From assembly GCA_017445365.1 (NCBI GenBank), contig JAFSUH010000175.1, positions 1 to 53,839 of the forward strand: 53,839 nt of DNA. The letters run 5' to 3'. The stretch is from Kiritimatiellia bacterium (GTDB lineage Bacteria; Verrucomicrobiota; Kiritimatiellia; CAIQIC01; Lenti-01). The notes below the pieces were generated by a model. The model ran no database searches and had not been told where the DNA came from. It saw nothing but the letters and a program-made list of their open reading frames with translations. This document shows positions 18,618 to 52,649 of this stretch, in pieces. The translations under genes were made by a program, and so were the position numbers. The first letter of the stretch is position 1; each line of letters starts with the position of its first letter.

Positions 18618-18621
18618 AGCA

Positions 18622-21256: not shown

Positions 21257-21269
21257 GCTGCCCGAAGGG

Positions 21270-21336: not shown

Positions 21337-21474
21337 TTTTTGCCGTCGGTGGGGCGAGCCGTCCCCGGCGAGCCGTTTTCCAGTTCTCGGAGCATGCGGC
21401 TTCAGCCGCATTCACCCAAAAATCCTCGGGGGTTCGGGGGCATTCCCCCGTCCGTTGCCAAACAAAAGCTGGAT

Positions 21475-24494: not shown

Positions 24495-24780
24495 CTTTGC
24501 CAAAAGCCCCCGCCCCCGGCAAGAATCCTTCCGTTGCCGGTTCCGGTTTTGCCAAACATTGGCAAATCCCAAAATGGTAAGGTGAGCCGTTCTCCAGTCC
24601 CGCTGGTTCCGCCCATCCCTTCCCAATCCTTGGGGGGTGCGGGGGTTTCCCCCGTCCGTTGTCATGCGCCGCGCATGCGCGGCGCCAAATCGAACCCCGC
24701 CAAAGGTGCCAACCCCCATTTTGCCAATGTTTGGAAAAAACGCCCTGAATTTGCCAAACATTGGCAACCCCTCCCCACCA
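24495..24780. repeat. array A6: TTTGCCAA-N3-TTGGCAAA units (3 good, 1 degenerate) plus a G5/C5 hairpin
   Basis: Units at 24547, 24729 and 24759 (30 bp apart). Degenerate unit at 24495. ggggggtgcgggggtttcccccgtccgttgtc at about 24633. Confidence 0.8.
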
Positions 24781-25810
24781 TTTCCCAGCCACTCCAAAAA
24801 CTGTCTTTTCAGTATCCGCGAAGCGGTTTCAATGTCCCACCCCTTTGCGGACCTCGCGCACTTTGCGCGAGCTTTTTCCCTTCCCCTCTCCCAAGCCCGA
24901 CAATCCTGCATTTCCTGTCGGAACCTTCTCTTTTCAATATCCGCTTTTATGGCCTTCATAGTCTCCGTTTCCCGCCCTTGTGTATTCTGCCTTGTGGATT
25001 GTCCATTGCCTTCCTGCTCCTGTCCGAAAGGCTTCTCCATTGAAAGCCCACGGACGCTTCAATGGTTTTCAATGTCTCCGTGACTCTCATTCTCCGTTTC
25101 CTCCGTGTTTGCAAACTGCATGATTGCGAAACCAATCAATCCCCGCCCCCTTTCCTCCCCAAATCCTTCGCATTCATTGTCCCCTCCTCTCTCCCCCCCC
25201 TCATTCCACCAATTTTCCTCTCCAACACACAAGGCACTATGTCACATAAATCTCTATATCGCTGTTTCTTCGCGTGGGCATTGTTTGCCATCCCTGCGAC
25301 ATCGTGGTCGAATCGCCCCAACGGAGGGAATGCCCCGTCTGCACGAAGGATGCGTTTGGAATCGATCTTCTCCAACTCGTCGGGGACGCAAGTTGCGCCC
25401 CGTAGAAATCACTTGACACGATTCCCGCGCCCTGATGTCCGCGCTTTCCTCCGGGACGACCTCGCATCCGGCCTGCCATCGGAAGTGTACGAGTCCCCCT
25501 CTCCGACTGTGTCTCCGTCCGCAACATCCGCTCTTTCCGATTTTGAGAACACCCCACAACGAGCCTCTGGCCTCGCTAGCGTTCCCCTCCCCTGCGCGAG
25601 TCTTCTTGCTCTTTTTCTCCGTTTTACCCTCCAATCCGCCCGTTTTCCGCCGGAAGGTGAAAAGCCGTTTTGGCAAGTATTCATGCGGTCGAAATGCAGA
25701 TTTTGCATCCAAAAGAACTCCGCCAGAATCGAAAAATGCAAAATGAGTCGTGTTCTTGCCCGTGAATTCCGCTTTTTTGAAACGGCTTTTCTCCCTCTTT
25801 TTCGCCTCTT

Positions 25811-28506: not shown

Positions 28507-29802
28507 ATGACTGATTTCCGTCAAGACCCCCGCTTTGCCGATCTCGCGCCTTTCCCGTCAAAACTTTGGCTGTCTTCCCCCACCATGCACGGGAAAGAAT
28601 TGCACTGGGTGGAAGAGGCCATCCGCACCAACTGGGTCACCACGCTCGGCGAAAACATCAACGAAGTCGAACGCGCCACCGCCTCCCTCGTCGGGCGCAA
28701 GTGTGCCGTCGGCCTTTCCGCCGGGACCGCCGCCCTCCACCTCGCCGTCAAACTCTGCGGCGAAGCCCTCTACGGCCAGCCCCGCGCCGGACACGGCACC
28801 CTCGAAGGCCATCGCGCCTTCTGCTCCGACCTCACGTTCGACGCAACCGTCAATCCTGTCTCCTACGAAGGGGGCGAAGCCGTCTTCGTCGATACTGAAC
28901 GCGACACCTGGAACATGGATCCTGCCGCCCTCGAAAAAGCTTTCGACCTTTATCCGGACGTGCGTCTCGTCGTTCTCGCCCATCTCTACGGAACGCCTGC
29001 CAGAATTGGCGAAATCCGCGCCATTTGCGACGCCCATCGCGCCTTGATCGTCGAAGACGCCGCCGAATCCTTCCTCGCTACCCACCAGGGCCGCCAGACC
29101 GGTACTTTCGGCGATGTCTCGATTTTTTCCTTCAATGGCAACAAGCTCGTCACCGGCAGTTCGGGCGGGATGCTCCTGACCGACAACCCCGAATGGGCGG
29201 ATAAAACCCGCAAGTGGTCCACCCAGTCGCGCGAAGCCGCCCCGTGGTATCAGCACGAGGAGCTCGGCTACAACTACCGGATGAGCAACATCGTCGCCGG
29301 CGTCGTCCGCGGGCAGCTTCCATACGCAGCCGAACACCGCGACCAAAAGAAGGCCATCTACGAGCGCTACAAGGCAGGCCTTGCCGACCTTCCCGTCTCT
29401 TTGAACCCGTTCCTCCCCGACGACGAGCCGAATTTCTGGCTCTCCTGCCTTTTGGTCGACACCGACGCGATGGCACCGCAAGTCCGCGGCGAACGCGACG
29501 CGCTCTACCGCCACGAGCCGGGCAAGTCATCGCCGACGGAAATCTTGGAAGCGCTCGCGGCTTTCAACGCCGAGGGCCGCCCCCTCTGGAAGCCGATGCA
29601 CCTGCAGCCGATCTACCGCATGAACCCGTTCGTGACGACAGCGGGCAGCGGCCGCGCCCGTTCCAACGCCTACATCTCCGGCGGCGCACCCGACGTCGGC
29701 GCCGACCTCTTCGCCCGCGGCCTGTGCCTGCCCTCCGACAACAAGATGACGCCCGATCAACAGGCCCTCATCATCGACATTGTCCACCGTTGTTTCCGAT
29801 GA
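28507..29802 (+). CDS. DegT/DnrJ/EryC1/StrS-family PLP aminotransferase (EpsN/PglE-like sugar aminotransferase)
   Basis: 431 aa. Contains FSFNGNKLVTGSSGGMLL (PLP-lysine region) and the N-terminal WVTTLGENINEVE pattern. Confidence 0.88.
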   Translation: MTDFRQDPRFADLAPFPSKLWLSSPTMHGKELHWVEEAIRTNWVTTLGENINEVERATASLVGRKCAVGLSAGTAALHLAVKLCGEALYGQPRAGHGTLEGHRAFCSDLTFDATVNPVSYEGGEAVFVDTERDTWNMDPAALEKAFDLYPDVRLVVLAHLYGTPARIGEIRAICDAHRALIVEDAAESFLATHQGRQTGTFGDVSIFSFNGNKLVTGSSGGMLLTDNPEWADKTRKWSTQSREAAPWYQHEELGYNYRMSNIVAGVVRGQLPYAAEHRDQKKAIYERYKAGLADLPVSLNPFLPDDEPNFWLSCLLVDTDAMAPQVRGERDALYRHEPGKSSPTEILEALAAFNAEGRPLWKPMHLQPIYRMNPFVTTAGSGRARSNAYISGGAPDVGADLFARGLCLPSDNKMTPDQQALIIDIVHRCFR

Positions 29803-30137
29803 CCCCGCCCCCGGCAAAACCATGCACCCCCGGCACCCCGGACGGCGAAGGCGTCCTCTCCTCAAAACGACAATGTCCCGATAAAAATCGAATCGTTGAT
29901 ATGTTGCGCCAACAACCCGGCCTCAACCGCAAACAACTGGCAGACATACTCTCGGTGGAGATCAAGACCGTTACCCGGGCTTTGGCGGAACTCACCCACA
30001 TGGTCGAACACCGTGGCAGAAGAAAACCTGCGGCTACCATCTCGTCTCTCCGCCCCACGAGTCTCCGTCCGCGTCGGATCCGACCGTGCCGGCCATTGGA
30101 AAGTCCTCGTTCCGCCGTTGCATGGGAACGGAAATAG
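29799..30137 (+). CDS. winged-helix (wHTH) protein, probably disrupted at its 3-prime end
   Basis: The ATG overlaps the aminotransferase stop (ATGA). HTH segment IVDMLRQQPGLNRKQLADILSVEIKTVTRALAEL. The conserved C-terminal VRVGSDRAGHWKVLVP is present but in another frame (ORF 29896..30144). Confidence 0.35.
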   Translation: MTPPPAKPCTPGTPDGEGVLSSKRQCPDKNRIVDMLRQQPGLNRKQLADILSVEIKTVTRALAELTHMVEHRGRRKPAATISSLRPTSLRPRRIRPCRPLESPRSAVAWERK

Positions 30138-30888: not shown

Positions 30889-31080
30889 TTGCCAGAAACA
30901 GCGGTCGCCATTCTTTCGGCCATGAACAAAACCCCAGCCATTACCATCGCCGAATTTTCCACAGCCTTGGACATCTCCTCCAGCGCCGTCGAAAAACACA
31001 TCTCCCGCTTCCGTTCGCGCGGCCTTCCCGTCCGCGTCGGCTCCGACCGTGCCGGCCATTGGAAAGTCCTCGTTCCATGA
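30889..31080 (+). CDS. small wHTH protein (intact copy)
   Basis: ITIAEFSTALDISSSAVEKHISRFRSRGLPVRVGSDRAGHWKVLVP. TTG start at 30889, or ATG at 30922. Confidence 0.45.
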   Translation: MPETAVAILSAMNKTPAITIAEFSTALDISSSAVEKHISRFRSRGLPVRVGSDRAGHWKVLVP

Positions 31081-31158
31081 GTTGCTTCTCCTTTTGTGAT
31101 TCTGGCTCTGCAAGGCATTTGCCGCGTTTGGACACTTGTCGAGCCAACGGGAATTTCA

Positions 31159-31247
31159 CCCGCGGGCTGTGCCTGCCTTCCGACAACAAGATGACGCCCT
31201 TCCAGCAAGATTTAGTCATCGACATCATCCACCGTTGCTTCCTATGA
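31159..31247 (+). pseudogene. duplicated, diverged 3-prime end of the aminotransferase gene
   Basis: Encodes RGLCLPSDNKMTPFQQDLVIDIIHRCFL*, versus RGLCLPSDNKMTPDQQALIIDIVHRCFR* for the true gene end (29713-29802). Confidence 0.7.
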
Positions 31248-31966
31248 CCATGGCTTCATCTCTTCCTGTCAACTCCGCCCCTCTCCGCATTCTCGTCGTC
31301 GCCGCCCATCCCGACGATGAGGTTCTCGGCATGGGGGGAACCATTGCCAAACTTGCAGCCAACGGGGCCGAAATCAAACTTCTCATTGTCACCGACGGAT
31401 CATCTTCCCAATACCGAGGCAATCCCGACCTTCCGGCCATCATCGAGGCGAAAAAAGAGGAAACGGCCCGTTGCGCCGCCATTCTCGGCATCCGGGAAAT
31501 TCTCCATGGGGGTCTCCCCGACATGCGTCTTGACATCACACCCCATGTCCAAATCAACCAGATTATCGAGTCGGCCGTCGAGTCGTTCCGCCCTTCCGTC
31601 GTTTTTACCCACTTTTCCGGCGACATCAACGCCGACCACCAGCGCGTCAGCCACTCCACGCTTGTCGCGTGCCGCCCAACCGCATCCCAATGCGTGAAAC
31701 GGCTCTATTTCTATTCCGTCCCTTCATCTACCGAATGGAACGCCCCCGCCGCAACCAACGCTTTTCTTCCCAACGTCTTTTTTGACATTTCCGGCCCCTG
31801 CGCCGACCTCAAGTACCGGGCCTTTGCCTGTTACGGAACCGAGCTCCGTCCCTATCCCCACCCGCGCAGCGTCCAATATCTCCAAAATGCCGACGCCGCC
31901 GTCGGCAACCGCGTCGGTCTCCCGTCCGCGGAAGCTTTCATGCTTGTCCGGTCCGTCAACCCATGA
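31244..31966 (+). CDS. PIG-L/LmbE-family N-deacetylase
   Basis: ILVVAAHPDDEVLGMGGTIAKL motif. The ATG overlaps the remnant stop (ATGA). Confidence 0.85.
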   Translation: MTMASSLPVNSAPLRILVVAAHPDDEVLGMGGTIAKLAANGAEIKLLIVTDGSSSQYRGNPDLPAIIEAKKEETARCAAILGIREILHGGLPDMRLDITPHVQINQIIESAVESFRPSVVFTHFSGDINADHQRVSHSTLVACRPTASQCVKRLYFYSVPSSTEWNAPAATNAFLPNVFFDISGPCADLKYRAFACYGTELRPYPHPRSVQYLQNADAAVGNRVGLPSAEAFMLVRSVNP

Positions 31967-39144: not shown

Positions 39145-40370
39145 GCCACTTGCGCTCCGAGTCCTTCTTCTTCCCCCCGTCGCGACGCCCGTTCCCTGTC
39201 ATACAGTCCGATCAACATCCCCCAAACTACGGCGAATACAAGCTGATAGCTCGGGTAAAGGAAAATATGGCTAACCAGCGAATTGACCAAAAAAATCACG
39301 TAGGAACACGCCATGGCCGGGGCATAGCGCGAGTGTTGCCTTGTCATGACGATGCACCGCCGAATGATTTGCGCATGCAGGAAAAGGTACAAGAGCAGCA
39401 CAAATACCCCCAAATCATACATGATTTCCAAGGGGTCGTTGTGCGCGGAGCACATCAATGGACTGTCCTTGATGACGGTGTTCCACCCATGTCCCGCAAA
39501 CCAGTTCCAAATCGGTGACTCATCGATCATGCGCATGGTTGTCTGCCAGATAAGTGTGCGCCCGCTCCCTCCTGTCTGTCCAATCTCGGTCATCCGCTCG
39601 ACGATGAGCAAGTCGCTGTTCATCACGCGATCCGCGAAAATGCCCGTCAAAACCAATGCCATGACGGCAAGCGTGGCGAATTTCCGAATTTTCTTCCTCC
39701 CCGCGTTGGCAACCAACGGCTGGCACAGCATATAGGCCGCAAGCCCCAGCAGGAAGGCCACCAAGCCCCCCCGTTTGGCCGATTGCACAACGGCAACCAT
39801 CACCAGGGCAATTCCGGACAGCCGCACCCATCGTCTGTGGTTTGCGAGCACCACGGGCAAAAAGTACAGCGGATAATAACATCCGCCAGAAACACCCTCG
39901 CCCAGATGCCGGTAATCAAGGACGATTTGTCTACTTTGAATCGCTCGGACAAACATCATGACAAGCGCTACAAAGGTTGCGGGCGCAATCCACCGCGTGT
40001 CCTTCATGCGTATGGTCAGGGAATATGCGAAGCCTATCGCCAAAAGGGGCAAAGGTATTCTTAAAAAATCAGAACGATTGGGGAAGCTTCCATTCACAAG
40101 CCAACAAAGCGACACGGCATAGGCGACAAGGACCAATGCCTGGAACAATGGGACGGGCGAGGTTCGGATGATGGGAAAGCTTTTGATGACAAACAGCCAA
40201 TAGGCCGCCATGATTGCATAGAAAAGTGGAAGACAATAGAGGGCATAGCCCGATTCCCCTGTCCATATTGCCAACGTCCGCGAGGTAATCTCGCCAAGCA
40301 TGAACACGGCAAAGCAAGCCATGAAGACCATGAAAATAAAACTGACGGTTTTCGTGTTCACTTTGTTCAA
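39141..40370 (-). CDS. wzy: O-antigen polymerase/ligase (Wzy_C) family membrane protein
   Basis: About 10 TM helices. Periplasmic loop with GSGRTLIWQTTMRMI...GHGWN...SAHNDPLEIMYDLG. Confidence 0.8.
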   Translation of the reverse strand: MNKVNTKTVSFIFMVFMACFAVFMLGEITSRTLAIWTGESGYALYCLPLFYAIMAAYWLFVIKSFPIIRTSPVPLFQALVLVAYAVSLCWLVNGSFPNRSDFLRIPLPLLAIGFAYSLTIRMKDTRWIAPATFVALVMMFVRAIQSRQIVLDYRHLGEGVSGGCYYPLYFLPVVLANHRRWVRLSGIALVMVAVVQSAKRGGLVAFLLGLAAYMLCQPLVANAGRKKIRKFATLAVMALVLTGIFADRVMNSDLLIVERMTEIGQTGGSGRTLIWQTTMRMIDESPIWNWFAGHGWNTVIKDSPLMCSAHNDPLEIMYDLGVFVLLLYLFLHAQIIRRCIVMTRQHSRYAPAMACSYVIFLVNSLVSHIFLYPSYQLVFAVVWGMLIGLYDRERASRRGEEEGLGAQVA

Positions 40371-40431
40371 TGCGTCATAAAGCTATGGCTTCAAAATCAT
40401 TCGGCGTGCCAGAAAGAATAGACAGGCGATT

Positions 40432-41511
40432 TCATCGCGGAGCAACATGTTTAGGATAATCAATACCTAAGCGTCCAACTTTCATCGGATCATTATCTTT
40501 CAAAGGTACAACCTGCCCACCATACATTCCTAAATCAAACGTATATTCATACTGGAATCCAGAGGAAAGTATCAACGCCCCCTTCGTTCCCCCGCATCTG
40601 GTCCCGATGAAGCAAGAGCATTTTGAGAGCAGATAGATTGCGCACAAGTATTCTAGTCCTGCCTGAAAACGTGTCTCGCTACTTTGTGCAATTTGCATTT
40701 TTTGGTAGGCTAAAGGCTTCCCATCCGGCAATTGGCTTCGTTTTATCCTGGTTTGCCGATTCACGATGAGCCGTTCCCCGAAAACAGCATGGAAATCGGA
40801 GTAAACATCTTCATCTTCCGTAGCCAAAAACAATGTCTCACACCCGTGCTCGGTCATGACATTTTTTGCTTTTTGGATGACTTGTTGCGAAGTCGGCGGA
40901 ATTGGATGATTTTTCGGGCGCATTGTGAGATAATCTGTCCCACGGCAGAGTACGCCTAGCGTTTTGACTCCACCATTTGGAAGGAGTGATATTTGTTCTT
41001 CAAGGTAGGCCTTCACAAAACTATCGTAACGGATGTACTTTGAAAAAAAAGAACGAAAATATTGGATGCGAGACTTGTCATTATAGAAATTGCCCATGAA
41101 GTGTTCGCGATCGGGAGCTGGATATCTTGCTGCAAGAATCACATTTTTACTTTTGTAAACATCATCTAGACTATAGCCAAATGGTTGTTGAAAATATTTC
41201 TCCCAAACATTCACCTTTCCGAGATCATTTGGTCCCGTATATTGGGTTCGATAATTTTTGTAATCAATGACCGGAATATATCCAGCTTCAACAGCAAAGG
41301 AAATATGCATTAGCGCTTTATTAAGCAGCCAAAAAATTCCACCAGCTGTATCATTAAATCCTATAACATAGAATGTTTTGTCTGGGTTTTCATGTCCATA
41401 ACTCCGCATCTTTGCACGCCGTAAAAACTGTGACCAAGCCCGAAATATCACCGTTCTTGTCCCCAATGAAACAATCTTTCGCGGGATGAATCTTTTGGAA
41501 TTTGCTTTCAT
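40432..41511 (-). CDS. hypothetical glycosyltransferase-like protein with fucosyltransferase-type motifs (low-GC gene)
   Basis: In-frame ATG (MKANSKRF). VLCRGTDY, LFLATEDEDV and IGTRCGGTKGALIL resemble the three motifs of the fucosyltransferase superfamily. Sampled 60-nt lines are 32-35% GC. Confidence 0.45.
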   Translation of the reverse strand: MKANSKRFIPRKIVSLGTRTVIFRAWSQFLRRAKMRSYGHENPDKTFYVIGFNDTAGGIFWLLNKALMHISFAVEAGYIPVIDYKNYRTQYTGPNDLGKVNVWEKYFQQPFGYSLDDVYKSKNVILAARYPAPDREHFMGNFYNDKSRIQYFRSFFSKYIRYDSFVKAYLEEQISLLPNGGVKTLGVLCRGTDYLTMRPKNHPIPPTSQQVIQKAKNVMTEHGCETLFLATEDEDVYSDFHAVFGERLIVNRQTRIKRSQLPDGKPLAYQKMQIAQSSETRFQAGLEYLCAIYLLSKCSCFIGTRCGGTKGALILSSGFQYEYTFDLGMYGGQVVPLKDNDPMKVGRLGIDYPKHVAPR

Positions 41512-41525
41512 CTTGCACTCTCCAA

Positions 41526-43058
41526 TTATTTCCGCAACCGACACATGATTCCGAAAGTGATATTTCTTATCAACCCGCGCTCGACATGCGAAAGTGCAAA
41601 CGTATATGTTCCAAATAAAATGGATAAAGATGTAGCAATTCCAACACGCAACACCCGCCACAAGGATGCAGTCATAAAATAGTGAAGTGGGTATGCCAGC
41701 CAAAATGCGCCTAACAATGTCGTGCACATTGGGAAAAAACACTTCACGAAATAAGCAACTACCGGATACCCGACAAGGGTGCGGGCAAAATAAAGGCGGA
41801 CAGCCAAGCAGCACATTTCAATGACGACTGTCGAAAACAGCACTGCATATGGCTGGAATCCCGTCCGCATGAGCATGTAGGCGATTGGAAGGTTCAGGAT
41901 GAGGACACAGGACAACGCGAGGCGGTATGCCTTAATTTTTCCGCCGGCATCAATGGACAGCGCCACGCCGGACGAAAATTGGAACAGAAGTTGGCAAAGC
42001 AAAATCAGCCTGCAAAAGGGAACGGTGTATTCCGGGATGTTGTCGCCCAGCCAAAGGGCCAGCAGGCTCCGCATTTCAATGATGGCCGGGATGGCCATCA
42101 GGCCAAAAACGAGCGTTGCGACCTTGACCAGGGAAAACGACATGGCCAAGGAGACGTCGCGTTGATTGGCGCCTTCCTTCTGCATCAACTGGGGGGCGAT
42201 GGCCTTTTGAATGCTGGATGTGAACGACGACAGCAAGCCGTTGATTTGGTTGGCGACGCCATAGGCCGCATTGATGGCCGTTCCCTTGAACAGGTTCAAT
42301 ATGATGGCAATGCCTTGGTTTTTCCCCATCATGGCGACGGACCCGAAAGCGGACCATCCGGCATAGGACACCATTTCCTGAAACAGGCTTCTTTCAACCG
42401 GGGCATGGAAATCAATGCGAATGGCTCGGTATCTCGAACGGACAATTTTCCACTTCAAGAAGGTCGCCGCAATGTAGATGGAGGCCATGCCGATTCCGTA
42501 GAAGAGCAATTTGTCCCATGCGACATAAAAAAGGAAAAATGCCAAAAGAAGTTTTCCAAAAGCCTCCGCGACAAAGATGAGGGAGATGGCCAGCATGTTT
42601 TCGTAGGCATTGAGGGCGGCATCGTACGGCACGGCCAAAATGGAGAAGAATGTGCTGACGACCATGAATTGATAGATCCACTTTGCGGCTACGATGCGTT
42701 CGGGCCGGATATTGAGGAACCCGTTGAACAAGAAGAGCGCGCACACCTCCATGAAAATGGCGATGAGAACGGCAAGGCACAAGTGGATTCTGATGCTTGC
42801 ATTGTACACCGCATTGAGTTTCCCGGCGTCTTTCATCCCCATCGTGACGGACATGTAGCGCTGACTGGCAACCGTCATGGAGGAATTGAGGAACGCGAGC
42901 ATGACCACGACGCCCGCGACGAGATTGTAAAGGCCGTAATCCGAAACGCCCAGCGCGCGAAGGGTTACGGGAACCGTCCAAAGCGAAAGCACCATGCAAA
43001 CGATGATTTTTGCATACAGGATGCCGGTGTTGAGGATGATGCGGTTCCCGGCCTTCAT
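41526..43058 (-). CDS. wzx: Wzx-type polysaccharide flippase (MOP superfamily)
   Basis: 510 aa with about 12-14 TM helices. N-terminal ILNTGILYAKIIV... pattern. Confidence 0.85.
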   Translation of the reverse strand: MKAGNRIILNTGILYAKIIVCMVLSLWTVPVTLRALGVSDYGLYNLVAGVVVMLAFLNSSMTVASQRYMSVTMGMKDAGKLNAVYNASIRIHLCLAVLIAIFMEVCALFLFNGFLNIRPERIVAAKWIYQFMVVSTFFSILAVPYDAALNAYENMLAISLIFVAEAFGKLLLAFFLFYVAWDKLLFYGIGMASIYIAATFLKWKIVRSRYRAIRIDFHAPVERSLFQEMVSYAGWSAFGSVAMMGKNQGIAIILNLFKGTAINAAYGVANQINGLLSSFTSSIQKAIAPQLMQKEGANQRDVSLAMSFSLVKVATLVFGLMAIPAIIEMRSLLALWLGDNIPEYTVPFCRLILLCQLLFQFSSGVALSIDAGGKIKAYRLALSCVLILNLPIAYMLMRTGFQPYAVLFSTVVIEMCCLAVRLYFARTLVGYPVVAYFVKCFFPMCTTLLGAFWLAYPLHYFMTASLWRVLRVGIATSLSILFGTYTFALSHVERGLIRNITFGIMCRLRK

Positions 43059-43315
43059 GTGGCCCTCCCTGCTATATGAATTGCCTCCGATACTGTAGCC
43101 CGAACAAGATTGGCATCAACATTGCGCTTGAAAAGCGTTTGCCTATGCCAGCTAGTTGCCGGATAGCAGACCGTCTGCCATGCCGTTGCCACCACATGTT
43201 GGAAACTGTGAATCATCTCCTCCCCCCCTATTCCCCGCCCTGCCGCTGTCATGTTCGCCTTCATTTGTGCCGCGACTCTACCCCCCTCTCTCCCCCAATT
43301 CCAGCTCGCATTGCA

Positions 43316-43687
43316 TCACAGTAAAGGATACCGGAGCCGGAAAACCCCGGCGACCTCTCTGCCGTCGAGGCGCGCACGGTGTACATGCCCTTCTCCACTA
43401 ACATCTTCGCCATCGGTGGCGATCAGTCGCACCCCGGGTTTCAACGCGCTCTGCACTGGTGCAAAGAACACGGAAAGAAAGCCGTTCGGCTTCCCCGTAC
43501 GCCGGGGATTTGTTCCTCTGCCATCAAAAACCAATTGGAATTCCTGCGGTAAAACCGCCTCCAATCGCATAAAGAACGTGTACCCAGGCAATAGGGCATG
43601 AAAATCGATTTGGCATGTTGCGGAAAGAGAGTTTGTCGCTTCTATGGACATCGCATCATGAAGATGGACAAAGAATTGCTTGCTCAT
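43316..43687 (-). CDS. hypothetical protein (123 aa)
   Basis: In-frame ATG (MSKQFFVHLHD...) preceded by AAGGAGGAGGGA. No family recognised. Confidence 0.45.
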   Translation of the reverse strand: MSKQFFVHLHDAMSIEATNSLSATCQIDFHALLPGYTFFMRLEAVLPQEFQLVFDGRGTNPRRTGKPNGFLSVFFAPVQSALKPGVRLIATDGEDVSGEGHVHRARLDGREVAGVFRLRYPLL

Positions 43688-43761
43688 TCCCTCCTCCTTC
43701 TCGCCCTTGTCTACCACCGCCGTCGCATCATTCGCATGCTTGCCGCCTTCCGAAAGACACC

Positions 43762-43838
43762 CCGCGCGGCCTGATTCGGCCGAAAGTTGCCCGAAATCAA
43801 GTTTCTTTGTTTCGAGAAAGTTGTTTTGTTGCATTTTG
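43762..43838 (+). repeat. repeat A, copy 1 (77 bp, identical to 45601-45677) upstream of ATPase 1
   Basis: ccgcgcggcctgattcggccgaaagttgcccgaaatcaagtttctttgtttcgagaaagttgttttgttgcattttg. Confidence 0.95.
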
Positions 43839-43902
43839 TATGAAATACCGTAATACAACTTCCCGGATTGCTTAAATTTTCGGCGAATGCCACAATCCCG
43901 GC

Positions 43903-45081
43903 ATGTTGATTGCACGCCAAATGGAAGCTGCCATGAGAGCCTCGGCGGAAGAGTATCCCGTCCTGACCGTTGTCGGCCCCCGTCAATCGGGAAAAACGAC
44001 TTTGGTCAGGACTCTCTTTCCATCGAAACCCTATCAAACGCTGGAAACACCCTCCACCCGCCTCCGCGCGGAAAGCGATCCCCAGGGGTTTCTGGCATCG
44101 TTTCCCGATGGGGCCATCCTCGATGAAGTCCAGCGCGTGCCCTCCCTCCTTTCCTACATCCAAGGCATCGTGGACGAAAAGAACCGGAACGGACTTTTCG
44201 TTTTGACGGGGTCCGCCAACCTTCTTTTGATGCAAAACGTCAGCCAGTCCTTGGCCGGGCGATGTGCCGTATTCACCCTTTTGCCCTTCAGTCTCGCCGA
44301 AGCGGCGGGCGTTCTTCCCTCCGACTCCCCGCTTTCCGCCATCCTTTGCGGGGGCTATCCCCGCCTTCTTGTCCGGGGCATGGGACGCCCGCGTTTCTTC
44401 GCCAACTACATCGACACCTATGTCGAGCGCGACATCCGCCAACTTCTCAACATCAAGAACACGCTTCTTTTTTCGCGATTCCTGCGCCTTCTGTCCGGGC
44501 GGGTCGGATCGCTCCTCGATCGCACGTCGCTCGCGAACGATTGCGGCATCTCGACGAAAACCGTCGCTGAATGGTTTTCCGTCCTCCAAGCTTCCTCCAT
44601 CTGCTTTCTTCTCCCTCCTTGGCATGACAACCGCGGCAAGCGCCTTGTCAAAACCCCGAAAATCTACTTCCACGACACCGGCCTGGCCTGTGCCTTGGCC
44701 GGAATCGAAACCGAGCGGCAGCTCGAACGCGATCCGCTCCGCGGCGGGCTTTTCGAAAACTTGATTGTTTTGGAAGCTTTGAAGCGCGCCCTCAACGCCG
44801 GTCGGAAACCCGATTTGTATTTCTACCGGGATGCCAACGGTGTCGAAATCGATCTTGTCGAACAGCGGGCGGGATGTCTCCATCCCGTCGAAATCAAGTC
44901 TTCGGCGACTTTCCATCCCGATTTTTGCAAATCCCTCTTCACCTTTGCCGCCCGCCATCCCGGACGTTGCGATTCGCCGTCCCTCGTCTATGGCGGGAGG
45001 GAACGTTTCATCCACAAGGGCGTTTCCGTCCTGCCTTTCGCAAATGCGTTTCCGCCGCTCTCCGAAGCGCCGGATGCATGA
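43903..45081 (+). CDS. AAA ATPase, AAA_14 + DUF4143 type (paralog 3)
   Basis: GPRQSGKTT, AILDEVQ, LTGSANLLLMQNVSQSLAGR. C-terminal VEIDLV...HPVEIKSS is a PD-(D/E)xK-like pattern. Confidence 0.85.
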   Translation: MLIARQMEAAMRASAEEYPVLTVVGPRQSGKTTLVRTLFPSKPYQTLETPSTRLRAESDPQGFLASFPDGAILDEVQRVPSLLSYIQGIVDEKNRNGLFVLTGSANLLLMQNVSQSLAGRCAVFTLLPFSLAEAAGVLPSDSPLSAILCGGYPRLLVRGMGRPRFFANYIDTYVERDIRQLLNIKNTLLFSRFLRLLSGRVGSLLDRTSLANDCGISTKTVAEWFSVLQASSICFLLPPWHDNRGKRLVKTPKIYFHDTGLACALAGIETERQLERDPLRGGLFENLIVLEALKRALNAGRKPDLYFYRDANGVEIDLVEQRAGCLHPVEIKSSATFHPDFCKSLFTFAARHPGRCDSPSLVYGGRERFIHKGVSVLPFANAFPPLSEAPDA

Positions 45082-45244
45082 TTGCCTTGCCCTGTGCACG
45101 CTTTCCCGTTTCGTCCATCTCCGGAACGATTCCGCGCATTCCACGATCCGTCATTCCCTTTCGAGCATCCTGTTTCGACTTCCTTTCGACGAAACATTGG
45201 TTCGGGACGAAGACCATGCTAGAGGGGGCAGGCCCCGACGGGAA

Positions 45245-45372
45245 GGTTCGCGGCGGGAAAGACCATCTTGAAAGGCATCGCATGAAAGCATTGATCTTGA
45301 ATTCCGGGCTGGGCAGTCGCATGGGCGTGCCCACGTCCGAACACCCCAAGTGCATGACGGAGGTTCCGCCGC
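45245..45372 (+). pseudogene. repeat B, copy 1: duplicated, diverged 5-prime end (leader plus first 30 codons) of the PEP-mutase fusion gene
   Basis: ATG at 45282 reads MKALILNSGLGSRMGVPTSEHPKCMTEV, then diverges into junk. 117/128 nt identical to 47017-47144. Confidence 0.7.
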
Positions 45373-45600
45373 GTTTTGCGGGACAGGGCAACTGCGAGCT
45401 CCTCTTTCCCTTGCCGAAATTTTATTCGAACTTTTTCGGCTTGAACCGAAGAAATGCCGACTCGGTCGGGAATCGCGGCCGGAATCCCGTCAGGGAAAAC
45501 ATTTGATGCTGCCTGTCCCTTTCGGCGTTCCATGGCCTTTCCGGGCAATGAATGCTGAAATCGTTGCCTTTGGAGCATATGAGGGGAAAACTTGTTTGGT

Positions 45601-45677
45601 CCGCGCGGCCTGATTCGGCCGAAAGTTGCCCGAAATCAAGTTTCTTTGTTTCGAGAAAGTTGTTTTGTTGCATTTTG
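45601..45677 (+). repeat. repeat A, copy 2 upstream of ATPase 2
   Basis: 77/77 identical to 43762-43838. Confidence 0.95.
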
Positions 45678-45718
45678 CAAAACGCGCCGCTAGTGTACCC
45701 GCGGCAGGAAACACCGAG

Positions 45719-46867
45719 ATGAATGCAAATCCTTTCGTTTACGGGAAAGAAGTGGCCGGGGAGAATTTCTACGACCGCCGGGAAGATTTTTCCCGGCTGG
45801 TTTCGACCTTGGAGGGAGGGGCGGCCAATGTCGTCCTGTATGCGCCCCGGCGCTACGGCAAGACGTCGCTGGCGAAAAAAGCGCTCGGCGAACTGGCACG
45901 GCGGGGCTTCCGGTGCGTTTATTTCGATTTCATGCGCGTGGAATCCGTCCCGAAATTCTGCGAGGCCTATGCTTCTTCCGTGTATGCACTGGAACGAGGG
46001 ACCGTGCGCGCCATGCGCAGGATCGGGAAAACCCTCTCGGCATTGCGTCCCCGCTTCACCGTCGGCGACGACGGGAAGCCCGCCCTCGAACTCGACTTGG
46101 GCGTGAAGCCGACGGTCGCGACCCTCGAAGAAACGCTCGACCTTCCAGAAAGGCTGGCCGACCCGAAACATCCCGTGGTCGTGGCCTTCGACGAATTCCA
46201 GGAAATCGGCACGCTATCCCCGTCCCTTCCTCTCGAGGGCGTTTTCCGCGGCTGCATCCAACGCCACCGCCTGGTCCGCTATTTGTTCCTGGGCAGCAAA
46301 ACCCACATGATCAAGCGGATGTTCGCCGATCGTTCCCGTCCGTTCTACAATTCCGCGGCCATCCAACGTCTGGACGTGCCCTCCGGGGAGGAGTCGGCGG
46401 CCTTCGTCGAAGCGCGATTCGCGTCCGTGGGGATGCGAATCGAAAAGGATGCCGTCCAAACCGTGCTGGAAATGTCCAAGGGGATTCCCTACTACGTCCA
46501 AGCCCTGTCCGCCCTGTCCTTTGAGGAAGCGGTGGCCGCTCCGGTCCGGCATCCGGTGTGCGTTGGCGATGTCGAATCGGCTGCAAGGCGTTTGCTCGAA
46601 TCCAAGAGCGATGTTTACGAAAGCGTTCTCCAAGCCCTCTCCGCGTCGCAACGGACCCTTCTTGCGGCACTTGCGCGCAAGCCCGTCCGGCGCTTCGATG
46701 CGGGTTTCCGCGCCGCCAACGGAATCGGAACGTTGTCCGGGCTTCATTCCGCACTGGCCGTGCTGCTTGAAAAAGGCCATGTGGAAGCCACCCTGCGCGG
46801 ATATGAAATCGGCGATCCGTTTTTTGCCCGCTATCTCACGGAGTCCGTATTCCATGTCATTGAATGA
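45719..46867 (+). CDS. ATP-binding protein of the archaeal-type ATPase (PF01637-like) family
   Basis: NPFVYGKEVAGENFYDRREDFSRL, Walker A APRRYGKTS, Walker B VVAFDEFQE. Probable C-terminal wHTH region. Confidence 0.8.
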   Translation: MNANPFVYGKEVAGENFYDRREDFSRLVSTLEGGAANVVLYAPRRYGKTSLAKKALGELARRGFRCVYFDFMRVESVPKFCEAYASSVYALERGTVRAMRRIGKTLSALRPRFTVGDDGKPALELDLGVKPTVATLEETLDLPERLADPKHPVVVAFDEFQEIGTLSPSLPLEGVFRGCIQRHRLVRYLFLGSKTHMIKRMFADRSRPFYNSAAIQRLDVPSGEESAAFVEARFASVGMRIEKDAVQTVLEMSKGIPYYVQALSALSFEEAVAAPVRHPVCVGDVESAARRLLESKSDVYESVLQALSASQRTLLAALARKPVRRFDAGFRAANGIGTLSGLHSALAVLLEKGHVEATLRGYEIGDPFFARYLTESVFHVIE

Positions 46868-47053
46868 ATTCCCGTCTCGCATCGGGCCTCCTCCCGTTCT
46901 GCTGCTTTTGCGCAGCTCTTGCGGACGCGTTTGTACTTTTGTCCGTTCCACTCCTTCGCAAAAAATTGTTTCGAGCGGGAGAGAATGCCGGGGGAATCGG
47001 ATTCTCCTGCAGGCAGGGTTCGCGGCGGGAAAGACCATCTTGAAAGACATCGC

Positions 47054-49066
47054 ATGAAAGCATTGATTTTGAATTCCGGTCTCGGTTCCCGCATGGGCGT
47101 GCTCACTTCCGAACACCCCAAGTGCATGACGGAGGTTTCGCCGCGGGAGACCATCCTCTCCCGGCAACTGAACCAGCTGGCGGAAGTCGGCATCACGGAC
47201 GTGGTGATGACGACCGGCCCCTTCGACGGGGTGCTCGAAAACTACTGCCGCTCGCTCGACCTGCCGCTGGACATCCGGTTCGTCAAGAACCCCGTGTACG
47301 ACAAGACGAACTACATCTACTCCATCCATTGCGCGCGGGAACTCCTGCTCGACGACGACATCCTCTTGATGCACGGCGACCTCGTTTTCGAAAACGAGGT
47401 TCTCGACATGCTTCTGGCCGCCCCCGGCTCCGCGATGGCCGTTTCCTCCACCCTGCCGCTCCCCGAAAAGGACTTCAAGGCGGTCGTCCGCGACGGCATG
47501 GTGCAGAAGGTCGGCACCGGGTTTTTCGGGGAAGGGGCGATGGCGGCCCAGGCGCTTTACAAGCTCGACCGGGCCGATTGGCGGCTCTGGCTCGACAAAA
47601 TCGCGGCTTTCTGCGAGGCCGGAAACACCGGCGTCTACGCCGAAAACGCCCTGAACGAACTCGACGGGGCCGCCAACATCCGCGCGTGCGACGTTCGCGA
47701 CCTCCTGTGCGCGGAAATCGACAACCCCGACGACCTCGCCGCCGTTTCCGCCAAGCTCGCCGCCGTCGAATCGCGCACCGTGTACGCGGTTTTCTCGACC
47801 GACATCCTCCACGGCGGGCACGTCGCCATCCTCCGCAAGGCCGCGCGCCTCGGTCGCGTCATCGTGGGGGTCCTTTCCGACGAAGCCGTCGTCGCGTACA
47901 AGCGCTTCCCGCTCGTTCCCGCCGCGGAACGAAAGAAACTTTTCGAGAGCATCGCGGGCGTCTGGAAGGTGGTGGACCAGCGGACGCTTTCCTACCGGGA
48001 AAACCTTGCAAAGTACCGCCCCGACATCGTGGTCCACGGCGACGACTGGTGCCAGGGCTTCCAGAAGCCCGTCCGCGACGAAGTGGTGGCCTTGCTTGCC
48101 GGATACGGCGGCCGTCTCGTGGAGTTTCCGCATTCCGACGCGCCCGAATACCGCGAAATGGAAGCGCGCGCCCGCGCCGAACTCTCCCTCCCCGACATCC
48201 GCCGCGCCCGGCTCAGGAAGACCCTCGAAATGAAGGGGTTCGCGACCGCGATGGAAGCGCACAGCGGCATCACCGGGCTTATCGTCGAAAAGACCAAGGT
48301 GTACCAGGACGGCGGCACGCACCAGTTCGACGCGATGTGGGTTTCCTCGCTCTGCGACTCCACCGCGAAGGGCAAGCCCGACATCGAGCTGGTGGACATG
48401 ACCAGCCGCTTCCGCACCATCGACGACATCATGGAAGTGACGACCAAGCCCATCATCTTCGACGGCGACACCGGGGGACTCGCCGAGCACTTCGTCTACA
48501 CGGTCCGCTCGCTGGAACGGATGGGCGTCTCCATGGTCATCATCGAGGACAAGACGGGGCTCAAGAAGAACTCGCTCTTCGGGATCGAAGTCGCCCAGAC
48601 GCAGGACAGCATCGAAAACTTCTCCGCGAAGATCCGCGCCGGGAAGAAAGCGCAAAAAACGCGGGATTTCATGATTTGCGCGCGCATAGAGTCGCTCATC
48701 CTCGAGCGCGGCATGGAAGACGCGCTGGCGCGGGCATCCGCTTTCGTCGAAGCCGGAGCGGATGCCATCATGATCCACTCGCGCAAGAAAGACCCTTCCG
48801 AAATCAAGGAGTTCATCCGCCTCTTCCGCGAAAAGGACCCGACCACGCCCATCGTGCTGGTGCCGACCTCGTTCAATTCCGTGACCGAAGAGGAATGGAA
48901 GGCTCTCGGCGCGAACATCGTGATTTACGCGAACCAGCTCACCCGCACGGGCTTTCCGGCGATGCAGAACGCGGCCAAAACCATCCTCGAACACCACCGG
49001 GCGAAGGAATGCGACGCGATGTGCATGTCCATCAAGGACATCATCACGCTCATTCCCGAAGAGTAG
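47054..49066 (+). CDS. pepM: three-domain protein: LicC/PntC-like nucleotidyltransferase + HxGH cytidylyltransferase + phosphoenolpyruvate mutase
   Basis: N-terminal MKALILNSGLGSRMG (GxGxR NTP-transferase). Middle VYAVFSTDILHGGHVAILRKA (HxGH). C-terminal PEP mutase with IIEDKTGLKKNS (EDKxxxxxNS signature). Confidence 0.88.
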   Translation: MKALILNSGLGSRMGVLTSEHPKCMTEVSPRETILSRQLNQLAEVGITDVVMTTGPFDGVLENYCRSLDLPLDIRFVKNPVYDKTNYIYSIHCARELLLDDDILLMHGDLVFENEVLDMLLAAPGSAMAVSSTLPLPEKDFKAVVRDGMVQKVGTGFFGEGAMAAQALYKLDRADWRLWLDKIAAFCEAGNTGVYAENALNELDGAANIRACDVRDLLCAEIDNPDDLAAVSAKLAAVESRTVYAVFSTDILHGGHVAILRKAARLGRVIVGVLSDEAVVAYKRFPLVPAAERKKLFESIAGVWKVVDQRTLSYRENLAKYRPDIVVHGDDWCQGFQKPVRDEVVALLAGYGGRLVEFPHSDAPEYREMEARARAELSLPDIRRARLRKTLEMKGFATAMEAHSGITGLIVEKTKVYQDGGTHQFDAMWVSSLCDSTAKGKPDIELVDMTSRFRTIDDIMEVTTKPIIFDGDTGGLAEHFVYTVRSLERMGVSMVIIEDKTGLKKNSLFGIEVAQTQDSIENFSAKIRAGKKAQKTRDFMICARIESLILERGMEDALARASAFVEAGADAIMIHSRKKDPSEIKEFIRLFREKDPTTPIVLVPTSFNSVTEEEWKALGANIVIYANQLTRTGFPAMQNAAKTILEHHRAKECDAMCMSIKDIITLIPEE

Positions 49067-52350: not shown

Positions 52351-52448
52351 GGGGGACTCCTGTATTGGAAAGCTTGAAAGGAAACTCTACGCGCGCGTTG
52401 CCGAAAAGACAAGCGCTTGGGCGGGCCATTCCCGGCGCGCGAAGAGCG

Positions 52449-52574
52449 TTTTGCCAATGTTCGGCAAATCCGGCCCGTTTTTGCCGAACATTGGCAAATC
52501 CATCCGCCGCGCGCGTTCCCGGTTTTGCCAATGTTTGGCAAATTTCACGCGATTTTGCCAAGGATTGGCAAAAT
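52449..52574. repeat. array A7: 4 units TTTGCCAA-N3-TTGGCAAA with spacing 30/44/30 bp
   Basis: Units start at 52449, 52479, 52523 and 52553. Lies in the divergent promoter region between 52350 (-) and 52650 (+). Confidence 0.9.
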
Positions 52575-52649
52575 GCCTTCCGGGCGCGGCGGACGGTTGA
52601 TTTCCGCCCGGGGAATCGGCACACTCCTCCGCCGAACAAGGAGTTTCCC

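What the first reader, a model, noticed from the sequence alone, without database searches (positions are those of the whole stretch)
43762..47144. Tandem hotspot: two unrelated ATPase genes, each framed by the same upstream (A) and downstream (B) repeats
The structure is A (43762-43838), DUF4143 ATPase, B-prime (45245-45372), A (45601-45677), PF01637-like ATPase, then B (47017-47144), which is the true 5-prime end of the PEP-mutase fusion gene.

- The A copies are 77/77 identical.
- B and B-prime are 117/128 identical.
- Both B copies encode MKALILNSGLGSRMGV(P/L)TSEHPKCMTEV. Six of the 11 differences sit in the codons for GLGSR and are all synonymous (ggg ctg ggc agt cgc versus ggt ctc ggt tcc cgc).

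B-prime is therefore a fragment of a diverged functional homolog, not a fresh local duplication. The simplest reading is that one A-ATPase-B unit was imported by recombination using conserved flanks. This left two alternative cargo genes in tandem at a defined integration site beside the glycan/phosphonate genes.
Basis: seen in the sequence. Interest (0 to 1): 0.7.

Follow-up and report, generated by a model that had tools for sequence, protein, structure and literature searches.

The report
Promoter-fragment scar around two ATPase genes
The repeats are real, but they look like an ordinary recombination scar: a copied piece of one ATPase gene's own promoter plus a dead 5' stub of a second PEP-mutase allele, at the edge of a surface-polysaccharide locus, with no evidence of a dedicated insertion hotspot.

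Summary
A (43762-43838 and 45601-45677) is 77/77 identical. B'/B (45245-45372 and 47017-47144) is 117/128 identical. Contigs from five samples carry all or part of the tandem, so it is not an assembly chimera.

- **B'**: it is a stub of a diverged, once-functional pepM allele. Seven of nine changed codons are synonymous, and the two replacements hit residues invariant in homologs.
- **A**: it is not a locus flank or attachment site. It is the conserved promoter-proximal element of the PF01637/Orc-Cdc6-like ATPase (ATPase2). An ortholog from another study carries it at 74% identity, and two paralog lineages at unrelated loci share its core.
- **A's right edge**: it falls between the inferred -35 and -10 boxes, so A1 is a truncated promoter copy. 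It sits upstream of the DUF4143 ATPase's own family-typical promoter.
- **Other pepM loci**: none of 87 has either ATPase within 10 kb, and no recombinase lies nearby.

Best reading: a 1.84-kb segment (DUF4143 ATPase, pepM stub, 227-nt spacer, one A) was joined into the ATPase2 promoter region by recombination between two versions of the locus. The DUF4143 ATPase matches PADLOC PDC-S01, an untested defence candidate. Interest is low to moderate.

The parts
41526..43058 (-). Wzx-type flippase. It is the first gene of the minus-strand polysaccharide operon and the left neighbour of the region.
   Evidence: Pfam Polysacc_synt; gene tables.
43334..43552 (+). Relic of a TagD-like cytidylyltransferase gene, internally deleted. 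It keeps an N-terminal-like RTVY.PFST motif and the C-terminal 50 residues.
   Evidence: The relic is 74% identical over 50 aa to the C-terminus of the 135-aa CTP_transf_like gene of relative L112.
43747..43761 (+). 15 nt left of A1 that still match the ATPase2-upstream element of the ortholog L114. The equivalent bases left of A2 do not match.
   Evidence: 11/15 matches for the A1 flank against 0/15 for the A2 flank.
43762..43838 (+). Repeat A, copy 1. It is a truncated copy of the ATPase2 promoter-proximal element: dyads at 43786-43801 and 43805-43820, and the -35-like TTGCAT at 43829-43834. It lacks the matching -10.
43868..43896 (+). Inferred own promoter of ATPase1 (TTGCTT, 17 nt, CACAAT). 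The same layout is conserved upstream of ATPase1 homologs in L082 and L083. The ATG at 43903 lies 7 nt after the -10, so the mRNA may be leaderless.
   Evidence: Upstream comparison, coordinates. Homology to L082 begins at 43856. The consensus scan did not call this promoter, so it is an inference.
43903..45081 (+). ATPase1: an AAA_14 + DUF4143 (PD-(D/E)xK) ATPase matching PADLOC PDC-S01. The start codon is uncertain: 43903 (392 aa) in some gene calls, a later in-frame start (382 aa) in others.
   Evidence: - Pfam E 7.6e-49 and 1.5e-25; PADLOC PDC-S01 E 2e-101.
- Motif D..EID..EIK present.
- Gene calls of 392 and 382 aa.
45240..45373 (+). B': about 42 nt of pepM 5' leader plus codons 1-31 of a diverged pepM allele (ATG at 45282). 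It reads on into 43 unrelated codons, so it is a pseudogene stub.
   Evidence: The 74-aa product has no Pfam hit.
45374..45600 (.). 227-nt spacer of unknown origin between B' and A2. Its left end is the illegitimate joint with pepM' codon 31.
   Evidence: It has no match in any fetched locus except copies of the same contig. It shows no significant similarity to the sequence left of A1.
45601..45677 (+). Repeat A, copy 2. It sits in its native position upstream of ATPase2: dyads at 45625-45640 and 45644-45659, and -35-like TTGCAT at 45668-45673.
45691..45696 (+). Inferred -10 box (TAGTGT) of the ATPase2 promoter. It lies 17 nt after the -35 and outside repeat A.
   Evidence: The same -35/17-nt/-10 layout occurs in L114, L097 and L105. 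This is an inference with no experimental mapping.
45719..46867 (+). ATPase2: a PF01637-like AAA+ ATPase with an Orc/Cdc6-like fold and a C-terminal winged helix.
   Evidence: - Pfam 32.5 bits, just below the cut-off.
- AlphaFold model with pLDDT 85.7.
- Foldseek best hits 2qen and 2fna (TM 0.67-0.74), followed by Orc1/Cdc6.
47012..47145 (+). B: the pepM leader plus the true 5' end of the intact pepM fusion gene (ATG at 47054).
47054..49066 (+). Intact fusion gene of nucleotidyltransferase, cytidylyltransferase and PEP mutase. It lacks the Fe-ADH and phosphonopyruvate decarboxylase genes that follow it in relatives.
   Evidence: - Pfam; TIGR02320 at 393.8 bits against a cut-off of 319.55.
- Relatives L107, L112 and L113.
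- No Ppd or Fe-ADH in the window.

Best explanation
The region is a recombination scar at the variable edge of a surface-polysaccharide/phosphonate gene cluster. The organism is from ruminant-gut metagenomes and is probably a Kiritimatiellia-like bacterium.

**What the repeats are**
- Repeat A is the promoter-proximal control region of the PF01637/Orc-Cdc6-like ATPase gene (ATPase2). It holds two 16-bp dyad-like units and the -35 box.
- The copy next to ATPase2 (A2) has the native right-hand context: the -10 box and the gene.
- The copy next to the DUF4143 ATPase (A1) has the more native left-hand context. On its right it is cut between -35 and -10. It now lies about 30 nt upstream of ATPase1's own -35 box.
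- B' is the leader and first 31 codons of a second, diverged pepM allele. It was truncated at an illegitimate joint and is now decaying.

**What happened**
- A 1,839-bp segment was joined into the ATPase2 promoter region. It carries the ATPase1 module, its 3' flank, the pepM stub, the 227-nt spacer and one A.
- The event was recombination between two versions of the locus. One exchange used A, either as a homologous anchor or as a Campbell-type single crossover. The other joint was illegitimate.
- The direct repeats now allow RecA-type deletion of either ATPase: A1 x A2 removes ATPase1, and B' x B removes ATPase2.

**Shown:** the repeats, their boundaries, A's association with the ATPase2 family, B's coding origin, and the absence of a recombinase.

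**Inferred:** the promoter and operator roles, the direction and mechanism of the joining event, and the deletion potential.
For: **A belongs to the ATPase2 family**
- L114, from another study, holds an ATPase2 ortholog (85% nt). It carries an A-like element directly upstream (57/77 identical), while the surrounding non-coding DNA is unalignable.
- Paralog lineages at unrelated loci share the core TTGCCYRAAAWCAAGT ... AAG.TTTT.TTGC at the same distance from the ATG. L097 lies beside a GT2 gene and trigger factor; L105 lies beside a type I restriction-modification system.

**A1 is a truncated, displaced copy**
- A -35/17-nt/-10 layout is shared by all four lineages, and the -10 lies outside A.
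- The A1 left flank matches L114 at 11/15 bases; the A2 left flank matches at 0/15.
- ATPase1 homology to L082 starts at 43856, and ATPase1 has a family-typical promoter of its own.

**B' is a stub of a diverged allele**
- 7 of 9 changed codons are synonymous, and the 2 replacements hit invariant residues.
- The coding part is 82/93 identical, yet bases 45245-45281 of the leader are 36/37 identical, and that leader is absent from relatives. This indicates a mosaic origin.

**The surroundings are a decaying cluster**
- A cytidylyltransferase relic lies at 43334-43552, and pepM has lost its Fe-ADH and Ppd partners.

**No dedicated machinery or hotspot**
- The called genes from about 10 kb left to 8.8 kb right of ATPase1 (contig end) carry no integrase or transposase family.
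- Neither ATPase occurs near pepM in 87 other loci.

**The structure is real**
- It was assembled in five samples.
Against: - No parental allele was found: neither Y-A-ATPase2 without the insert, nor A-ATPase1-B'-full pepM. The direction and mechanism of the event therefore remain inference.
- A is 77/77 identical while the neighbouring B coding part differs by 12%. This needs either a very recent A duplication, gene conversion, or a separately swapped pepM allele.
- The promoter assignment rests on motif layout only. The generic sigma-70 scan called nothing here.
- The A-family evidence rests on four lineages.
- B' beside ATPase1 does imply that another lineage had ATPase1 directly upstream of pepM. 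That is what a 'slot with alternative cargo' predicts.
Confidence: 0.6

Rival explanations
1. A and B are conserved flanks of a defined insertion slot upstream of pepM. Different strains carry different ATPase cargo there, and one whole A-ATPase-B unit was imported by homologous recombination through those flanks, leaving two cargos in tandem.
For: - B' plus roughly 100 nt of weakly homologous pepM-upstream DNA lies next to ATPase1, just as B lies next to ATPase2.
- A and the leader bases 45245-45281 together differ at 1 of 114 positions. The first 93 coding bases differ at 11. This fits shared flanks around variable content.
- Both ATPase families belong to the flexible gene pool, with 387 and 62 plasmid records respectively.
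- ATPase1 is a PADLOC defence candidate.
Against: - A is found with ATPase2-family genes at unrelated loci and is cut inside the inferred promoter.
- ATPase1 carries its own promoter.
- There is no ATPase near pepM in 87 other loci, and neither A nor the B leader occurs in them.
- Exact-match scans of JGI metagenomes found neither A nor the B leader, and a viral-contig scan did not find A.
- Every contig that reaches this locus shows one arrangement.
- A tandem cannot arise from two homologous crossovers alone. The B'/spacer joint is illegitimate.
Confidence: 0.2
2. A local tandem duplication of A-ATPase2-B occurred first. Later the first ATPase copy was replaced by ATPase1, and the full-length pepM was replaced by a foreign allele.
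For: - The two A copies are identical and bases 45245-45281 of the pepM leader are 36/37 identical, as expected for a local duplication.
- pepM is widely transferred, with 71-81% amino-acid identity to genes in Clostridia, Bacteroidales and Lentisphaeria.
Against: - It needs three events, two of them replacements without flanking homology.
- The spacer is not present upstream of A1, as a simple duplication would require.
- The left flanks of A1 and A2 differ in how much of the ancestral element they keep.
Confidence: 0.1
3. The units are integron-like or transposon-like cassettes, with A acting as a recombination site for a site-specific recombinase or transposase.
For: - A contains imperfect dyad symmetry and folds slightly better than shuffles (z = -2.3).
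- An ATPase2 paralog in L097 is also framed by long direct repeats.
Against: - The called genes from about 10 kb left to 8.8 kb right of ATPase1 (contig end) include no integrase or transposase.
- A lies 5' of the genes and overlaps the inferred -35 box.
- The units carry their own promoters.
- No terminal inverted repeats frame the unit.
- The first ~98 nt of the L097 repeat is an interspersed REP/MITE-like element also found elsewhere, and the full 239 nt recurs in L082.
Confidence: 0.04
4. The tandem is an assembly artefact that merges two strain alleles.
For: - Two contig ends fall inside copy A1.
Against: - The B'/spacer and spacer/A2 joints are spanned in five samples whose contigs carry two naming styles.
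- The two contig ends inside A1 (L116, L096) lie exactly 55 nt into the repeat. That is ordinary repeat fragmentation, not a chimeric join.
- The B'/spacer joint shares no long k-mer with B.
Confidence: 0.02

Closest known systems
Recombination junctions with gene remnants in surface-polysaccharide (capsule/O-antigen) loci, including homology-facilitated illegitimate recombination (one homologous anchor plus one illegitimate joint). This comparison rests on my own knowledge of the literature, not on a tool result.
   Same: - The site is the variable edge of a glycan locus with low-GC glycan genes.
- Pseudogene stubs of neighbouring biosynthesis genes are present: the pepM 5' stub and the cytidylyltransferase relic.
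- Short direct repeats are left at the joints.
- No dedicated recombinase is present.
   Different: - The duplicated anchor is a 77-bp piece of another gene's promoter, not part of a biosynthesis gene.
- The inserted genes are orphan AAA+ ATPases, not sugar-pathway genes.
- The parental alleles were not recovered.
PADLOC PDC-S01 (single-gene phage-defence candidate: ATPase fused to a PD-(D/E)xK domain, Pfam DUF4143, COG1373)
   Same: - ATPase1 matches the PDC-S01 models at E 2e-101 and has AAA_14 + DUF4143 with an intact D..EID..EIK motif.
- PDC-S01 is reported as the most frequent single defence-candidate locus in rumen genomes (PMC13356809).
- It is described as an ATPase fused to a PD-(D/E)xK domain (PMC12988326), and DUF4143 is classified in that superfamily (PMC3424549).
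   Different: - Defence activity is unvalidated for most PDC candidates (PMC12988326).
- Nothing here tests it.
PF01637 'archaeal ATPase' family (structures 2qen PAB2304 and 2fna SSO1545) and the Orc1/Cdc6 fold
   Same: The ATPase2 model (pLDDT 85.7) superposes on 2qen and 2fna at TM 0.67-0.74, and then on Orc1/Cdc6: an AAA+ domain plus a C-terminal winged helix.
   Different: - The Pfam score is just under the gathering cut-off.
- Sequence identity to the solved structures is 16-18%.
- The family has no known function.
- There is no evidence for any replication role.
Integron gene-cassette arrays and defence-island 'hotspots' flanked by core genes
   Same: Two unrelated small genes lie in tandem, each preceded by the same repeat. 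One of them is a defence candidate.
   Different: - There is no integrase, and the repeat is 5' of the genes and promoter-bearing rather than a 3' attC site.
- Each gene has its own promoter.
- No cargo turnover was seen among available contigs or related loci.

Membership tests
Integron cassette array | A tyrosine-recombinase integrase gene (intI) adjacent to the array | tested here: not met
   The precomputed Pfam tables for called genes from about 10 kb left to 8.8 kb right of ATPase1 (contig end) list no integrase family.
Integron cassette array | attC recombination sites at the 3' end of mostly promoterless cassettes | tested here: not met
   A lies 5' of both genes and overlaps the inferred -35 box. 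Both ATPases have family-typical promoters of their own.
Transposon / IS insertion | A transposase gene, terminal inverted repeats and a short target-site duplication | tested here: not met
   There is no transposase. No inverted repeats frame the unit. The flanking duplication is 77 bp.
Strain-variable hotspot with conserved flanks | The same flanks hold different cargo in different genomes | tested here: inconclusive
   - Only one arrangement appears in every contig reached through ATPase2, MscL or the flippase.
- 87 other pepM loci lack both ATPases, A and the B leader.
- Too few contigs of this species were reachable to rule out strain variation.
PADLOC PDC-S01 (ATPase1) | Match to the PDC-S01 profile; ATPase plus DUF4143/PD-(D/E)xK architecture | tested here: met
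   PDLC04790 E 2e-101. AAA_14 E 1.5e-25 and DUF4143 E 7.6e-49.
PADLOC PDC-S01 (ATPase1) | Protection against phage | not testable with these tools
   PDC systems are candidates whose validation is mostly pending (PMC12988326).
Pfam PF01637 ATPase_2 (ATPase2) | Score at or above the Pfam gathering cut-off | tested here: inconclusive
   - 32.5 bits against a cut-off of 33.2.
- Precomputed Pfam does assign PF01637 to the same gene and its homologs.
- The fold matches PF01637 structures 2qen and 2fna.
PEP mutase (TIGR02320) | Score above the NCBIfam equivalog cut-off | tested here: met
   393.8 bits against a cut-off of 319.55.
Functional phosphonate pathway | pepM coupled to a driving enzyme such as phosphonopyruvate decarboxylase | tested here: not met
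   - The window has no Ppd or Fe-ADH by tblastn.
- 63 of 80 related loci have Ppd within 10 kb.
- The rest of the genome was not available.
Known RNA family for repeat A | An Rfam covariance-model match | tested here: not met
   There are no matches at gathering score in the window, or at E <= 1 in 43000-47200.

The most novel reading that the evidence does not exclude
Repeat A may be the cognate DNA site of the Orc/Cdc6-like ATPase2: two conserved 16-bp dyads in front of its own gene, bound through its C-terminal winged helix. On this reading the extra copy upstream of the PDC-S01 ATPase is not a passive scar. It could wire the defence-candidate ATPase into the same control circuit. Alternatively it could mark a promoter-targeted way in which these orphan ATPase genes are captured, as hinted by the long direct repeats that also frame an ATPase2 paralog in L097.
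Probability: 0.1. Interest if true: 0.6.

Novelty: new member of a known kind. Interest (0 to 1): 0.25.

Why it matters
- It shows how a seemingly modular 'repeat-gene-repeat' pattern can come from ordinary recombination between two versions of a variable locus. That guards against over-calling hotspots from a single genome.
- It documents a conserved upstream element for an uncharacterised Orc/Cdc6-like ATPase family in gut Kiritimatiellia-like bacteria.
- It places a PDC-S01 defence candidate and this ATPase beside a decaying phosphonate/glycan cluster.
- If the two 16-bp dyads prove to be the ATPase's own binding site, that would give a first functional handle on the PF01637 family.

Tried and rejected
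**Searches for A and the B leader elsewhere**
- An exact 30-mer of A found nothing in viral contigs or JGI metagenomes.
- An exact 25-mer of the B leader found nothing in JGI metagenomes.
- A and the B leader were searched by exact match in the 80 species-representative pepM loci, and the whole region by blastn against all fetched loci. Only copies of the same contig matched.

**Looking for strain variants**
- Exact look-ups of MscL, ATPase1, ATPase2 and the flippase returned only the same arrangement.

**Contexts of close relatives**
- ATPase1 homologs (P0002, P0005) and pepM relatives at about 90% identity (P0244, P0251, P0252) have no A, no B leader and no ATPase beside pepM.

**RNA and promoter scans**
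- Rfam gave nothing at gathering score or at E <= 1.
- RNA folding of A gave only a modest z-score of -2.3.
- The generic sigma-70 and terminator scan found no promoter call and terminators at the chance level.

**Origin of the spacer and flanks**
- Local-alignment tests found no significant similarity between the spacer and the sequence left of A1. L114's flanks also showed none beyond the 15 nt next to A.

**A third pepM fragment, rejected**
- The hit at 43334-43408 turned out to be a relic of a stand-alone cytidylyltransferase gene.

**A general 'ATPase genes are framed by direct repeats' rule, rejected**
- The first ~98 nt of the L097 repeat is an interspersed REP/MITE-like element also found elsewhere. 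The L082 pair is a short GACAA-rich motif.

Full report
**Source and setting**

The window is ENA contig ERZ27256812 k141_504988 (53,839 bp), from a ruminant-gut metagenome series. The closest named relatives of one of its genes are 'Kiritimatiellae bacterium' MAGs. The organism is therefore probably Kiritimatiellia-like; this is an inference.

The finding lies between two blocks of genes:
- a minus-strand polysaccharide operon (UDP-glucose dehydrogenase, glycosyltransferases, pyruvyl transferase, Wzy, Wzx flippase ending at 43058);
- a minus-strand block of TupA-like ATP-grasp, RuvX and MscL genes.

- A occurs exactly twice (43762-43838 and 45601-45677) and is 77/77 identical, with none expected by chance.
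- ATPase1 (43903-45081) is AAA_14 + DUF4143.
- ATPase2 (45719-46867) is PF01637-like, at 32.5 bits against a cut-off of 33.2.
- The downstream gene (47054-49066) is an NTP-transferase/cytidylyltransferase/PEP-mutase fusion.
- Its true start is 47054, because every close homolog begins MKALILNSG. Gene callers chose other starts, giving 657 or 693 aa.
- The structure is not an assembly chimera. The window and L001 carry all of it, and L094-L096 span the inner joints, in five samples in all. Two contig ends (L116, L096) stop exactly 55 nt into copy A1, the signature of a k=55 repeat break.

**What B' is**

- Over the 31 shared codons, 9 differ. Seven are synonymous, including the three-base AGT/TCC serine switch. 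For comparison, a rough binomial run on 6 of 8 changed codons at a 25% synonymous expectation gave P about 0.004; the observed 7 of 9 is more extreme.
- The two replacements (L17P, S29P) hit residues that are invariant in all listed homologs.
- Its coding part is as far from B (82/93) as B is from the pepM of other organisms (78-81/93).
- In contrast, bases 45245-45281 of the leader before the ATG are 36/37 identical between B and B'. Relatives with 88-90% identical proteins do not share that leader.
- The two copies are therefore mosaics: a shared locus-specific leader with swapped coding alleles.
- Another ~55 nt upstream is weakly homologous between the two ATPase 3' flanks (19 of 3000 shuffles reach the score).

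**What A is**

- L114, a contig from an unrelated study, carries an ATPase2 ortholog (85% nt). An A-like element lies directly upstream of it (57/77 identical), while the DNA on either side is not alignable.
- Two paralog lineages (72-75% protein identity) sit at unrelated loci: one beside a GT2 gene and trigger factor, one beside a type I restriction-modification system. They carry the same core at the same distance from the ATG. The core is two 16-bp dyad-like units, [G/C]TTGCCYRAAAWCAAG and CTT..TT......AAG, followed by TTTT.TTGC.
- In all four lineages the final TTGC begins a -35-like hexamer, followed after 17 nt by a -10-like hexamer. In the window these are TTGCAT at 45668-45673 and TAGTGT at 45691-45696.
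- The -10 lies outside repeat A. A is therefore the upstream part of the ATPase2 promoter region, and copy A1 is a truncated version of it.
- The 15 nt left of A1 match L114 at 11 positions, whereas those left of A2 match at none.
- So A1 keeps the more native left context and A2 the native right context.
- That is what is expected if a 1,839-bp segment was joined into a once-continuous ATPase2 upstream region, duplicating 77 bp.
- ATPase1 does not depend on A. Its homology to the 81%-identical homolog in L082 begins at 43856. It has the family's own TTGC.T/17-nt/.ACAAT promoter layout at 43868-43896, shared with L082 and L083.
- These promoter assignments are inferences from conserved layout. 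The generic consensus scan called nothing, and no RNA family matches.

**Is this a hotspot?**

- Neither ATPase family occurs within 10 kb of pepM in the 80 species-representative pepM loci, nor in seven closer relatives. None of them contains A or the B leader.
- In the closer relatives the gene upstream of pepM is something else: an epimerase, a 732-aa unknown, or a divergent 205-aa gene. There pepM is followed by Fe-ADH and phosphonopyruvate decarboxylase.
- The window has neither partner, while 63 of 80 related loci have Ppd.
- A relic of a TagD-like cytidylyltransferase lies at 43334-43552. Its intact counterpart sits upstream of pepM in relative L112.
- The region is thus a decaying phosphonate/glycan segment into which orphan ATPase genes have come to lie.
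- The called genes from about 10 kb left to 8.8 kb right of ATPase1, where the contig ends, include no integrase or transposase.
- Exact-match scans of JGI metagenomes for A and for the B leader, and of viral contigs for A, found nothing.
- Look-ups through MscL, the flippase and the ATPases found only the same arrangement.
- Strain-level turnover therefore remains untested, not disproved.

**Most likely history and mechanism**

- Two versions of the locus existed. One had ATPase2 with its A-bearing promoter upstream of pepM. The other had ATPase1 upstream of a diverged pepM' that carried the same leader.
- They were joined by one exchange that used A and one illegitimate joint at pepM' codon 31/spacer (45373/45374). 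The A exchange was either a homologous anchor or a Campbell-type single crossover of a circular intermediate.
- The identity of the A copies (0/77) against 12% divergence in the pepM coding stub calls for one of three things: a recent event, gene conversion, or an independently swapped pepM allele. pepM is clearly mobile, with 71-81% identity to genes of Clostridia, Bacteroidales and Lentisphaeria.
- I could not recover a parental allele, so direction and mechanism are inferred.
- One consequence, also inferred, is that recombination between A1 and A2 would delete ATPase1, and recombination between B' and B would delete ATPase2.

**The genes themselves**

- ATPase1 matches PADLOC PDC-S01 at E 2e-101.
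  - PDC-S01 is an ATPase plus PD-(D/E)xK candidate defence gene.
  - It is reported as the most frequent single locus in rumen genomes, and most such candidates remain unvalidated (PMC13356809, PMC12988326, PMC3424549).
  - Its D..EID..EIK motif is intact.
- ATPase2 models confidently (pLDDT 85.7). It superposes on the archaeal PF01637 structures 2qen and 2fna (TM 0.67-0.74) and then on Orc1/Cdc6, that is, AAA+ plus a C-terminal winged helix.
- Both families occur on plasmids, in 387 and 62 records.
- The winged helix, together with the conserved dyads in front of the gene, suggests autoregulatory binding. This is speculation and is the basis of the 'novel case'.

**Verdict**

B' was interpreted correctly. 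A is the ATPase2 family's own upstream control element, duplicated as a fragment, and there is no evidence for a dedicated insertion slot. This is a new instance of a familiar kind of recombination scar, and its interest is low to moderate.

Noticed in passing
window 585-760, 4693-4769, 9349-9378, 18000-18140, 18613-18716, 24538-24786, 52440-52590: An interspersed palindrome, TTTGCCAAnnnnTTGGCAAA, occurs at 16 or more mostly intergenic sites, often as pairs 30-74 nt apart. It may be a binding site for a global regulator or a REP-like element.
   Followed up: no
window 4631-4705, 7862-7923, 9437-9498, 11150-11247, 11933-12030, 18722-18783, 21266-21340: A second interspersed family, 75-100 nt long and hairpin-rich (GTTGCTTTGCGGCG...CCGCCTCCAA), occurs in both orientations. 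One pair is 98% identical at 783 nt spacing.
   Followed up: no
window 47054-49066: The intact pepM fusion gene has none of the Fe-ADH and phosphonopyruvate decarboxylase partners that follow it in relatives. Homology to relatives starts 2-3 nt before the ATG and stops at the stop codon. It is either an orphan PEP mutase or the remnant of a truncated pathway.
   Followed up: partly
window 43334-43552: An internally deleted relic of a TagD-like cytidylyltransferase gene lies between the flippase and A1. It is 74% identical to the C-terminal 50 aa of the intact gene in relative L112.
   Followed up: yes
L097 7611-7849 and 9217-9464: An ATPase2 paralog (P0124) with its A-like promoter is framed by ~240-nt direct repeats (87-96% identical). 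The first ~98 nt is an interspersed REP/MITE-like element with 14-nt terminal inverted repeats. That part also occurs elsewhere in L097 and at window ~4840, and the full 239 nt recurs at 76% beside the ATPase1 homolog in L082.
   Followed up: partly
window 40000-42000: A low-GC island (38-47% against about 55-65% in the other profiled windows) covers the 359/460-aa unknown gene and the 3' part of the flippase. This is consistent with horizontally acquired glycan genes.
   Followed up: no
window 13675-13860 vs 16434-16604; 29710-29804 vs 31155-31249; 30065-30113 vs 31028-31076: Further local direct repeats of 50-185 nt (82-98% identical) occur at 1-2.8 kb spacing elsewhere in the window. They may be shared upstream or terminal regions of paralogous genes.
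   Followed up: no
L082 8648-11699; L105 2701-10288: The closest ATPase1 homolog sits among toxin-antitoxin, GmrSD and Macro-domain genes. An ATPase2 paralog sits next to RadC, a type I restriction-modification system and a TIR-domain gene. In those genomes the neighbourhood is defence-island-like.
   Followed up: no
window 43903 / L082, L083 upstream regions: In the ATPase1 family the -10-like box ends 6-7 nt before the first ATG (TACAATCC..GCATG). This suggests leaderless transcripts.
   Followed up: no
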